Of a stretch of 64,000 nucleotides of DNA, positions 30,048 through 31,602 are shown piece by piece (position 1 is the first letter of the stretch; the number at the start of each line of letters is the position of its first letter). Position numbers and translations under genes: made by a program. Location: the NCBI RefSeq assembly GCF_988242995.1, contig NZ_OZ547043.1; one strand, given 5' to 3'. The notes beneath the pieces are model-generated. The model worked only from the letters and a program-made list of their open reading frames with translations. It was not told where the DNA came from and searched no databases.

Positions 30048-30182
30048 TAGCCCAACGCAATAATGTCTGATGCGCTGCGCTTATCAGGCCTGCAAACGAC
30101 GTATTGATTATGTATGCCGGACAAAGCATTCTGAACTGCACCCCAAATGTTGGACATAATCTGACATCTGAAGGTGCAGTTT

Positions 30183-30704
30183 ATGAAACATTCATTTGAA
30201 GTAAAACTTGCCGCTGTAAATCATTACCTGGCTGGTCATGCAGGCATCATTTCTACGGCAAAACTCTTTCAACTTTCTCACACCAGCCTCTCACACTGGA
30301 TTAATCTTTTTCTTCTTCACGGTCCTCGGGCACTGGATTGCAGACACAAGCGTAGCTATTCTCCTGAAGATAAACTTTGCGTGGTTCTTTATGCTCTCGG
30401 GCATTCTGAGTCTCTACCCCGGGTAGCTGCCCGGTTTAACATTCCCAGCCACAACACGGTTAAAAACTGGATAAAAGGCTACCGCAAATCTGGTAATGAG
30501 GCCTTTATCAGGCGCAGGAAGGAGAAAAGCATGACCCGTTCTGATGATACCCATGAAAACGAGGCAAACATGACGCCGGAAGAGATGAAGAATGAGCTGC
30601 GTTATCTTCGCGCAGAAAATGCATATCTGAAAGCCATGCAGGAGCATCTCCTGGAAAAAAAGCGCCAGGAGCTGGAGAAAAAACGAAAGTCATCCGGAGC
30701 CTGA
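30183..30704 (+). CDS. IS transposase OrfA (HTH, leucine-zipper region), 173 aa
   Basis: MKHSFEVKLAAVNHYLAGHAGIISTAKLF... resembles IS150-group OrfA; Shine-Dalgarno AAGGTG upstream. Confidence 0.8.
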   Translation: MKHSFEVKLAAVNHYLAGHAGIISTAKLFQLSHTSLSHWINLFLLHGPRALDCRHKRSYSPEDKLCVVLYALGHSESLPRVAARFNIPSHNTVKNWIKGYRKSGNEAFIRRRKEKSMTRSDDTHENEANMTPEEMKNELRYLRAENAYLKAMQEHLLEKKRQELEKKRKSSGA

Positions 30705-31531
30705 GGTGCGGACACTGCCAGTCTGACCTGTTAAAGGCTGCAGGGCTGGCCAGAAGCACGCTGTACTACCAGCTGTCACTGCAGAAGGCTAAGGACAAGT
30801 ATGCTGATGTGAAACAGCTCATAGCCTCCATCTTCCATGAACACCGGGGATGTTATGGGTACCGGCGGATCCATTGTGAGCTTCAGAAAAGAGGTCTTAA
30901 GTTCAGTGGCAAAACGGTGCGAAAACTGATGCAACAGCTCGGCCTGAAGTCTCCTGTGCGCCTGAAGAAATACCGGTCTTACCGGGGAAATATGGGACTC
31001 GCTGCAGAAAATATCCTTCAGCGGCAGTTCAAAGCGGAAGCTCCCTGTGAGAAATGGGTGACAGATATCACCGAATTCAGGGCTGGCGGACAAAAACTGT
31101 ACCTGTCCCCGATACTTGATTTGTTTAACGGGGAAATCGTGGCGTGGGAAACGGCCTGCAGGCCTACAGAGGAGCTGGTGAAGCGGATGTTAAATAAGGG
31201 GCTGGAAAGCCTTGCTGAAGGGGAGAAACCGCTGCTCCACAGTGATCAAGGATGGCATTACCGGATAAAAAGTTATCAGTCCGCCCTGGCGGACAGAGGG
31301 TTAGTGCAGAGCATGTCGCGCAAGGGCAACTGCCTTGATAATGCGGTAATGGAGAACTTCTTTGGTCACCTGAAAGAAGAAATGTACTATCGCCGGGACT
31401 ACAGAAATGTAGAAGAGCTGGAAAATGCCGTTAACGAATACATAACTTACTGGAATCAAAAAAGAATAAAACTCAGTCTTGGGGGACTCAGTCCGGTAGA
31501 ATACCGGACTGAGCATCAAAAAGCCGGTTAA
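30656..31531 (+). CDS. IS transposase OrfB catalytic (DDE) domain, expressed as OrfAB by -1 frameshift
   Basis: -1 frame is open across the A-AAA-AAG heptamer at 30656-30662 and runs to the stop at 31531; IS3-family transposase sequence (WVTDITEF...HSDQGWHY...). Confidence 0.75.
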   Translation, partial: KKAPGAGEKTKVIRSLRCGHCQSDLLKAAGLARSTLYYQLSLQKAKDKYADVKQLIASIFHEHRGCYGYRRIHCELQKRGLKFSGKTVRKLMQQLGLKSPVRLKKYRSYRGNMGLAAENILQRQFKAEAPCEKWVTDITEFRAGGQKLYLSPILDLFNGEIVAWETACRPTEELVKRMLNKGLESLAEGEKPLLHSDQGWHYRIKSYQSALADRGLVQSMSRKGNCLDNAVMENFFGHLKEEMYYRRDYRNVEELENAVNEYITYWNQKRIKLSLGGLSPVEYRTEHQKAG

Positions 31532-31602
31532 CTGAAACTGTCCAGGTTTTGGGGTTCAGTTCAATTCACGCCGCATCCGGCAAGTTGTATTGCCCAACTT
31601 CG

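What the first reader, a model, noticed from the sequence alone, without database searches (positions are those of the whole stretch)
30132..31563. Intact IS1397-like IS3-family element inserted into a REP palindromic unit between puuE and pspF
The element is exactly 1432 bp with imperfect terminal inverted repeats (TGAACTGCACCCC... / ...GGGGTTCAGTTCA), a flanking 4-bp direct repeat ATTC, an IS150-group OrfA and a DDE OrfB linked by an intact A-AAA-AAG -1 frameshift heptamer. Removing the element and one ATTC copy rebuilds TGCCGGACAAAGCATTCACGCCGCATCCGGCA, a typical E. coli REP unit, next to a second unit at ~30069-30100. Length and REP targeting match what is known of IS1397. The copy looks transposition-competent and marks this genome as non-K-12; it sits between two convergent 3' ends, so it is probably neutral.
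Basis: partly seen in the sequence, partly recalled or inferred. Interest (0 to 1): 0.5.

Follow-up and report, generated by a model that had tools for sequence, protein, structure and literature searches.

The report
IS1397 inserted in a REP hairpin
This is an ordinary, apparently intact copy of the known E. coli insertion sequence IS1397, sitting where it is known to insert: in the centre of a repetitive extragenic palindrome, here between puuE and pspF.

Summary
Window 30132-31563 is a 1432-bp element with 25-nt imperfect terminal inverted repeats (TG...CA) and a 4-bp ATTC target duplication. It has an HTH OrfA and a DDE OrfB in the -1 frame, joined at an in-frame A_AAA_AAG heptamer.

It is 1432/1432 identical to copies at another locus in other E. 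coli genomes that NCBI annotates as [quoted passage not shown]. The 449-aa OrfAB I derived is exactly that protein.

Natural empty sites (4277 of 5426 complete genomes, including K-12 and the nearest relative, strain 042) carry one uninterrupted palindromic unit.

Three other IS1397 loci also lie in the centre of a palindromic unit, with 3-bp duplications. This same unit has been hit at least three separate times: here, in about 95 genomes in the opposite orientation, and in 4 genomes with a TTC duplication.

The exact insertion seen here is in none of the 5426 genomes, so it is probably recent. The element, its target preference and its mechanism class are all already described. Interest is low.

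The parts
30132..31563 (+). Complete IS1397 copy, 1432 bp
   Evidence: It is 1432/1432 identical to copies at msrQ-zinT in strains SCU-102 and 7CC, annotated 'IS3-like element IS1397 family transposase'. The boundaries TGAACTG...CAGTTCA stay constant across five different flanks.
30132..30156 (+). Left terminal inverted repeat (IRL), starting 5'-TG
   Evidence: the repeat finder pair I1: 25 nt, 84% complementary to 31539-31563. It is unique in the window.
31539..31563 (+). Right terminal inverted repeat (IRR), ending CA-3'
   Evidence: pair I1.
30128..30131 (.). Left copy of the 4-bp target-site duplication, ATTC
   Evidence: Empty sites carry a single ATTC. The K-12 alignment overlaps by 4 bp.
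31564..31567 (.). Right copy of the target-site duplication, ATTC
30183..30704 (+). orfA, 173 aa, a helix-turn-helix DNA-binding protein
   Evidence: Pfam HTH_28 (9e-18) and HTH_Tnp_1. It has the same length as IS150 InsJ and is 27% identical to it. The PGAP CDS in identical copies starts at the equivalent ATG.
30656..30662 (+). A_AAA_AAG slippery heptamer for the -1 programmed frameshift
   Evidence: It is in register with the orfA codons. A fusion built by slipping here is an exact match to the NCBI IS1397 transposase, seen on 71 contigs. An AGGAG sequence lies 11 nt upstream at 30640-30644 (read). The downstream structure is only weakly supported (z = -1.75).
30662..31531 (+). orfB portion of the OrfAB transposase (-1 frame), the DDE catalytic domain
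   Evidence: Pfam HTH_21, rve, rve_2 and rve_3. It is 51% identical to IS150 InsK. The catalytic residues are D295, D355 and E391 of the fusion, at codons 31064-66, 31244-46 and 31352-54, with spacings of 60 and 36 residues.
30112..30131 (-). One half of the split Y-type palindromic unit (REP), comprising the GTAT tail and the GCCGGACAAAGC arm
   Evidence: With the IS removed, it forms GCCGGATGCGGCGTGAATGCTTTGTCCGGCATAC on the - strand. That sequence folds as a hairpin at -18.0 kcal/mol. It is uninterrupted in 4277 genomes.
31564..31581 (-). Other half of the split Y-type palindromic unit
30065..30093 (+). Intact Z2-type palindromic unit, tail-to-tail with the Y unit across an 18-nt linker (30094-30111). 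Together they form one BIME.
   Evidence: Pattern match GTCTGATGCGCTGCGCTTATCAGGCCTGC. Hairpin at -10.5 kcal/mol. PMC3333891 describes the z2 plus y composition as BIME-2.
28782..30047 (+). puuE (4-aminobutyrate transaminase). Its stop codon is 84 bp upstream of the IS.
   Evidence: ORF list. The homologous region is annotated puuE in 118UI, K-12 and 042.
31603..32580 (-). pspF (sigma-54 activator of the psp operon). Its stop codon is 39 bp from the IS right end.
   Evidence: The ORF runs 31603-32595. The annotated homologues are 978 nt.

Best explanation
A full-length, sequence-intact copy of insertion sequence IS1397 (IS3 family, IS150 group) has transposed into the central loop of a Y-type palindromic unit (REP) of the small BIME between the convergent genes puuE and pspF, duplicating 4 bp (ATTC).

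Shown here:
- the element's identity, boundaries, reading frames, catalytic residues and slippery site;
- the target duplication and the natural empty site;
- the same central-loop target at three other loci, and recurrent independent hits on this very unit.

Inferred from what is established for the IS3 family (IS911, IS2, IS3, IS150):
- A -1 ribosomal frameshift at A_AAA_AAG fuses OrfA (HTH, binds the inverted repeats) to OrfB (DDE catalysis) to make the OrfAB transposase.
- The transposase drives copy-out-paste-in transposition through a circular intermediate.
- Staggered cuts 3-4 bp apart in the target give the duplication.

Target choice is a property of the transposase itself, according to the published work on IS1397 and ISKpn1.

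The insertion is probably recent and specific to a strain or narrow lineage. It disrupts no coding sequence. Its only plausible effect is on the 3' ends of the pspF and puuE transcripts, because it splits the hairpin nearest to the pspF stop codon.
For: Identity:
- It is 1432/1432 identical to IS copies at msrQ-zinT and 1431/1432 to copies at cysE-trmL and caiF-caiE. All of these are annotated IS1397 with a programmed frameshift and the same protein, WP_100190663.1.
- The OrfAB fusion I derived is found exactly in the protein collection as 'IS3-like element IS1397 family transposase', on 71 contigs.
- NF033516 (IS3 family) scores 387 bits against a cut-off of 160. The rve and HTH domains are present. 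The triad D295, D355, E391 is intact.
- OrfB is 51% identical to IS150 InsK, against 32% for IS3 and 22% for IS2.
- A published table lists IS1397 as 'IS3 ssgr IS150', with 1432-bp copies and 4-bp duplications (PMC6963479).

Target:
- 4277 of 5426 genomes carry the uninterrupted site. In 118UI and 042 it matches the rebuilt sequence base for base.
- All other sampled IS1397 sites have GCCGGATGCG... on one side and ...TTATCCGGC[AC]TAC on the other, with 3-bp duplications.

Recency:
- No complete genome has this junction in this background.
- The nearest relatives, 042 and others at 98.9% identity, have the empty site.
Against: - I could not compare the element directly with the ISfinder or GenBank reference sequence of IS1397. 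The name rests on NCBI annotation of identical copies and on agreement with published length, group and target.
- Frameshifting and transposition activity are inferred, not measured. The predicted RNA structure downstream of the heptamer is only marginally better than shuffled sequence (z = -1.75).
- Neutrality for pspF and puuE expression was not tested.
- The copy number in the source genome is unknown, because only one 64-kb window is available.
Confidence: 0.96

Rival explanations
1. The element is a different IS150-group insertion sequence, such as a relative like ISKpn1 or an unnamed isoform, and the IS1397 label is an annotation carry-over.
For: No direct comparison with the ISfinder reference was possible. 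The primary IS1397 papers are not held in the library.
Against: - NCBI's name is specific ('IS3-like element IS1397 family transposase') and is applied to proteins identical to this one.
- The 1432-bp length, the IS150 subgroup and the 4-bp duplications match an independent ISfinder-based table (PMC6963479).
- The host (E. coli) and the E. coli palindromic-unit target match the published specificity.
Confidence: 0.02
2. The copy is intact in sequence but functionally inert: a silent passenger that no longer transposes, for example because of host control or very low frameshifting.
For: Activity was not measured. IS3-family promoters are weak. No convincing frameshift-stimulating structure was found. 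No more promoter-like sites than chance were found in the region.
Against: - Exactly or nearly identical copies (0-1 differences in 1432 bp) sit at several different loci in different strains. That requires recent transposition of this very sequence variant.
- Up to 40 copies per genome occur.
- By contrast, the old copy in strain 7/2 has visibly decayed: 20 substitutions, one deletion, and it is annotated as frameshifted.
Confidence: 0.08
3. The window's copy is not a new insertion. It descends from the older, oppositely oriented copy found in about 95 genomes at the same ATTC site, by in-situ inversion or by gene conversion.
For: It is the same palindromic unit, the same ATTC duplication and flanks identical to strain 7/2 over 100 nt on the puuE side and 60 nt on the pspF side.
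Against: - The window copy differs from the 7/2 copy at 21 positions and from the GF43 copy at 12. It is identical to the widespread active variant.
- Inversion would need recombination across 25-nt imperfect repeats.
- The nearest relatives by flanking sequence have the empty site.
- A third class of occupant has a 3-bp TTC duplication, which shows the unit is hit repeatedly.
Confidence: 0.02

Closest known systems
IS1397 (IS3 family, IS150 group) of Escherichia coli
   Same: It matches in DNA sequence (100% to copies so annotated), in 1432-bp length and in TG...CA ends with 25-nt inverted repeats. It also matches in the orfA/orfB pair with an A_AAA_AAG -1 frameshift, the DDE triad, the 3-4 bp target duplication, and insertion in the centre of E. 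coli palindromic units.
   Different: Nothing in the element itself differs. Only the locus, orientation and duplication combination is new: puuE-pspF, IRL towards puuE, ATTC. That combination is absent from 5426 complete genomes.
IS150 of E. coli K-12 (insJ/insK)
   Same: The architecture is the same. OrfA is 173 aa in both. The transposase domain is 51% identical, with the same motifs around the catalytic residues: WVTD(I/V)TEF, LHSDQGW and DNAV(M/V)E.
   Different: OrfA is only 27% identical. IS150 is 1443 bp. The K-12 copy sits in the hokA/sokA locus, not in a palindromic unit. IS150 is not known to target REP sequences (my own knowledge).
Other REP-targeting insertion sequences (ISKpn1 of the IS3 family; IS621, ISPpu9 and ISPa11 of the IS110 family; ISPsy8)
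   Same: They use repetitive extragenic palindromes as preferred insertion sites (PMC1525189; PMC3184786).
   Different: They belong to different families or have different hosts. IS621 inserts at the 3' side of the REP, outside the inverted repeats (PMC3184786), whereas this element sits in the central loop.

Membership tests
IS1397 | Near-identity of nucleotide sequence to elements named IS1397 | tested here: met
   It is 100% identical over 1432 bp to copies annotated 'IS3-like element IS1397 family transposase', and 1414 records have a match at 99% or more. It was not compared with the ISfinder reference entry itself.
IS1397 | Length of 1432 bp | tested here: met
   30132-31563 is 1432 bp. 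Two IS1397 copies of 1432 bp are listed in PMC6963479.
IS1397 | Insertion into the central part of enterobacterial palindromic units, with a 3-4 bp duplication | tested here: met
   - ATTC is duplicated, and the empty site is a single Y-type unit.
- Three other loci, and two other occupants of this same unit, show the same pattern with 3- or 4-bp duplications.
- The specificity is stated in the titles of Clement 1999 and Wilde 2001/2003, cited.
IS1397 | Demonstrated transposition activity | not testable with these tools
   The only evidence is indirect: identical copies at different loci in different strains.
IS3 family | Transposase matches the family model above the curated cut-off | tested here: met
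   NF033516 at 387.2 bits against a cut-off of 160, covering model positions 1-369 of 369.
IS3 family | Two overlapping reading frames (orfA, and orfB in the -1 frame) with a slippery heptamer producing OrfAB | tested here: met
   The frames and A_AAA_AAG are in register. The fusion equals the annotated 449-aa protein. Frameshifting itself was not measured.
IS3 family | DDE catalytic triad in an rve (integrase core) domain | tested here: met
   rve at 1.2e-21. D295, D355 and E391 have spacings of 60 and 36 residues and align with IS150 and IS3.
IS3 family | Terminal inverted repeats ending 5'-TG...CA-3' | tested here: met
IS150 group of the IS3 family | Transposase closer to IS150 than to the type elements of other groups | tested here: met
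   It is 51% identical to InsK, against 32% to IS3 InsF and 22% to IS2 InsD. Only three references were compared. PMC6963479 lists IS1397 under 'IS3 ssgr IS150'.
REP / palindromic unit (Y type) within a BIME | An extragenic imperfect palindrome of about 35 nt matching GCCGGATGCGGCG...CGCCTTATCCGGCCTAC | tested here: met
   The rebuilt unit is GCCGGATGCGGCGTGAATGCTTTGTCCGGCATAC. It forms a hairpin at -18 kcal/mol. It lies between puuE and pspF. Its tail is ATAC rather than CTAC.
REP / palindromic unit (Y type) within a BIME | Pairing with a second unit of a different type in inverse orientation (BIME). BIME-2 is z2 plus y with a short linker, usually in tandem copies. | tested here: inconclusive
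   A Z2-type unit at 30065-30093 lies tail-to-tail with the Y unit across an 18-nt linker. This fits the z2 plus y composition described in PMC3333891. However, it is a single pair, and I did not classify the linker motifs.

The most novel reading that the evidence does not exclude
The most novel reading that the evidence leaves open has two parts.

1. This particular Y-type unit between puuE and pspF may be an unusually hot target. It has been hit at least three independent times, in both orientations and with either 3- or 4-bp duplications. If so, it offers a natural series for dissecting how the IS1397 transposase reads a DNA hairpin or cruciform.

2. Splitting the hairpin 20-40 nt downstream of the pspF stop codon may change pspF mRNA 3'-end formation or stability. 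It may also let pspF transcription read antisense into the transposase gene, coupling the envelope-stress regulator to IS control.
Probability: 0.15. Interest if true: 0.25.

Novelty: already known. Interest (0 to 1): 0.1.

Why it matters
It matters little beyond bookkeeping.

- **Annotation.** The stretch should be annotated as a mobile element (IS1397), with its programmed frameshift, rather than as two hypothetical genes.
- **Strain marker.** The insertion is a useful lineage or strain marker, because this exact junction is absent from 5426 complete E. coli genomes.
- **Target specificity.** The case is a clean further illustration of the REP-targeting specificity of IS1397, including recurrent use of one palindromic unit.
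- **No new biology.** It does not open a new question. The element, its family, its frameshift architecture and its target preference are all described.

Tried and rejected
- **Primary papers.** I tried to read the primary IS1397 papers (PMC94167, PMC95333, PMC169884, PMC135288). None is held. Details such as the published inverted-repeat length come only from my own measurement.
- **Literature on this BIME.** A search for an earlier description of the pspF-puuE BIME found nothing relevant.
- **Rfam.** A scan of the whole window found nothing in or next to the element. There are no tRNA genes.
- **Promoters and terminators.** The scan of 29950-31750 gave no more sites than shuffled sequence. 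The one promoter-like hit spans the IRL-flank junction on the minus strand and is not evidence of an outward promoter.
- **Frameshift stimulator.** A stimulatory RNA structure downstream of the heptamer is predicted but weak (z = -1.75; 8 of 200 shuffles fold as well). It is left as inconclusive.
- **Half-units as part of the mobile unit.** I considered that the flanking half-palindromes might belong to the mobile unit. I rejected this because thousands of genomes carry the intact unit with a single ATTC.
- **Boundary ambiguity.** I considered whether the duplication could be 3 bp rather than 4. Here the left flank ends GCATTC and the right flank begins ATTCACG, next to constant IS ends, so it is 4 bp. 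The four genomes of the dog-strain type have a true 3-bp TTC.

Full report
**1. Checking the observation**

Reading 29900-31800 shows the left junction ...GTATGCCGGACAAAGCATTC|TGAACTGCACCCC... with the element starting at 30132. The right junction is ...GGGGTTCAGTTCA|ATTCACGCCGCATCCGGCA... with the element ending at 31563. The element is therefore 1432 bp, flanked by ATTC at 30128-30131 and 31564-31567.

The repeat finder returns the termini as its top inverted pair: 30132-30156 and 31539-31563, 25 nt, 84% complementary. The left 25-mer is unique in the window, with zero matches expected by chance.

OrfA runs from the ATG at 30183 to 30704, and a GTG at 30174 lies in the same frame. The -1 frame is open from 30602 to the stop at 31531. 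The heptamer A_AAA_AAG at 30656-30662 is in register with the OrfA codons GAA-AAA-AAG.

Pfam finds helix-turn-helix domains in OrfA. In OrfB it finds HTH_21 plus the integrase core domains rve, rve_2 and rve_3.

**2. What the element is**

Megablast against 5426 complete E. coli genomes finds matches in 3485 genomes, near-full-length in 1707, and up to at least 40 places in one genome. Nearly all matches are chromosomal. The listed best hits are all annotated 'IS3-like element IS1397 family transposase'.

The copies at msrQ-zinT in strains SCU-102 and 7CC are 1432/1432 identical to the window's copy. Copies at cysE-trmL and caiF-caiE differ at one base. All are annotated as one joined CDS with a programmed frameshift and the same protein accession.

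I built the fusion protein by slipping -1 at A_AAA_AAG, which gives 449 aa. An exact-sequence look-up finds it under the IS1397 name on 71 contigs. It matches NCBIfam's IS3-family equivalog at 387 bits against a cut-off of 160. The catalytic residues are D295, D355 and E391, spaced 60 and 36 residues apart.

Against the K-12 reference elements, the transposase part is 51% identical to IS150 InsK, 32% to IS3 InsF and 22% to IS2 InsD. OrfA is 173 aa, the same length as IS150 InsJ, and 27% identical to it. This supports the IS150-group placement. An independent genome paper also lists IS1397 as 'IS3 ssgr IS150', with two 1432-bp copies and 4-bp duplications (PMC6963479).

**3. The target**

I built an artificial empty site from 300 bp of each flank with one ATTC. 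It matches 4277 genomes over at least 80% of its length as a single piece covering puuE and pspF.

In strains 118UI and 042 the intergenic sequence is base-for-base the rebuilt one. In K-12 it differs by a few substitutions but has the same single ATTC.

On the minus strand the rebuilt unit reads GCCGGATGCGGCGTGAATGCTTTGTCCGGCATAC. This is a Y-type palindromic unit, and it folds as a hairpin at -18 kcal/mol. The duplicated ATTC (GAAT on the minus strand) is its central loop.

A Z2-type unit (GTCTGATGCGCTGCGCTTATCAGGCCTGC, 30065-30093) lies tail-to-tail with it across an 18-nt linker. The z2 plus y composition is what PMC3333891 describes for BIME-2. I did not classify the linker motifs.

With the IS removed, my patterns find only four units in the whole window. 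Landing in the centre of one is far from random.

**4. Is palindromic-unit targeting a property of the element?**

At the three other loci sampled, the flanks read (T/C)GCCGGATGCG...|IS|...T(T/C)ATCCGGC(A/C)TAC. The duplications there are 3 bp: AGC, AAT and TGG. In those three the IS has the opposite orientation, relative to the unit, from the one in the window, so both orientations occur.

This agrees with the literature as far as I could read it. [quoted passage not shown] They also state that the transposases determine the specificity (PMC1525189, PMC3184786, PMC2817692, PMC3333891). The CFT073 example in a supplement of PMC1525189 shows the same central position.

**5. The same unit has been hit repeatedly**

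- **This window.** Its left junction is found in no complete genome in the same background.
- **Four genomes, same orientation, different duplication.** These genomes (for example dog strain Z1323PEC0014) lack the puu cluster. They carry IS1397 in the homologous unit in the same orientation, but with a 3-bp TTC duplication and 10 substitutions in the IS.
- **Ninety-five genomes, opposite orientation.** These carry IS1397 at the same ATTC in the opposite orientation. The GF43 copy is intact. The copy in strain 7/2 is 1431 bp and annotated as frameshifted. The two share 12 substitutions relative to the window's copy, so they probably descend from one older event.

That makes at least three independent insertions into one palindromic unit.

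The window's nearest relatives by flanking sequence (042 and others, 98.9% identity) have the empty site. The window's IS is also identical to the widespread variant. The insertion is therefore most likely recent.

**6. Mechanism**

The sequence features are shown. The following steps are inferred from the IS3 family generally:

- Frameshifting at A_AAA_AAG makes OrfAB.
- OrfAB binds the inverted repeats and circularises a copy of the element.
- That copy is integrated with cuts staggered by 3-4 bp.

An AGGAG sequence lies 11 nt upstream of the heptamer, at a distance compatible with the Shine-Dalgarno-like stimulators known for -1 frameshifting (my own knowledge). The downstream stem-loops are not convincingly better than chance.

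**7. Consequences for the host**

No coding sequence is interrupted. The puuE stop codon is 84 bp from the IS, and its adjacent Z2 unit is intact. The pspF stop codon is 39 bp from the IS, and the hairpin nearest to it is split.

No canonical terminators were found beyond chance. Neutrality is plausible but untested. A modest effect on pspF 3'-end formation, or readthrough antisense to orfB, is not excluded.

**8. Comparison and novelty**

The element is IS1397 itself. All defining features that can be tested in silico are met. The only untested ones are direct comparison with the ISfinder entry and actual activity. Only the precise combination of locus, orientation and duplication is new. The verdict is 'already known', with low interest.

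**9. The window in general**

Compared with K-12 (98% identity), the window:

- carries a 7.9-kb efflux island between fabI and sapF;
- lacks ycjM-ycjW including ompG;
- lacks K-12's IS5F;
- lacks K-12's 122-bp segment between puuR and puuC;
- has an intact gene where K-12 has the ymjC/ymjD fragments.

It is therefore not K-12, whatever the IS says.

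Noticed in passing
window 7289-15185: A 7.9-kb segment between fabI and sapF is absent from K-12, where ycjD sits instead. It encodes a TetR-family regulator (7544-8209), an HlyD-type membrane-fusion protein (8325-9479), an AcrB-type RND pump (9479-12586), an outer-membrane efflux factor (12590-13963) and an MFS transporter (13972-15135).
   Followed up: partly
window 34691-34776: The 14-kb ycjM-ycjW cluster of K-12, including ompG, is absent. pspE is followed after about 86 bp by ycjX. 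Strains 042 and GF43 have the same arrangement, so it is a lineage feature and not linked to the IS.
   Followed up: partly
window 41402-42061 (ORF 41562-42200, - strand): An extra 660 bp relative to K-12 restores an intact 212-aa NAD(P)H-binding (NmrA-like) ORF. K-12 has only the small ymjC/ymjD fragments at this position.
   Followed up: partly
window ~47378-47381: K-12's IS5F copy between ynaI and ynaJ is absent here. The flanks join with a 4-bp overlap in the alignment, as expected for an empty IS5 site.
   Followed up: no
window ~25872-25874 (puuR-puuC intergenic): K-12 has a 122-bp extra segment here that the window lacks. By eye it resembles an ERIC/IRU repeat (GAGCGAATCCCGATGAGCTTACTCAGGTAAGTGATTCGGGGGAGCG). 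That resemblance is my recollection of the consensus and was not tested.
   Followed up: partly
window 55795-55890 (-), 59268-59385 (+), 63695-63873 (+): Rfam finds the sRNAs McaS, FnrS and RalA at gathering score. RalA, together with colinearity to K-12 up to ralR, shows that the window ends inside a Rac-like prophage.
   Followed up: no
L020 (E. coli 7/2, NZ_CP023820.1 1492195-1493542) and about 94 similar genomes: An older IS1397 copy sits in the same puuE-pspF palindromic unit in the opposite orientation. It is decayed (1431 bp, annotated as frameshifted) in strain 7/2, and the other roughly 93 genomes share its junction sequence. This may be a useful clade marker.
   Followed up: partly
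E. coli genome collection: About half of the genomes with any match to IS1397 (1778 of 3485) have only partial coverage, below 80% of the element. This suggests that fragments or related elements are widespread. I did not examine what these are.
   Followed up: no
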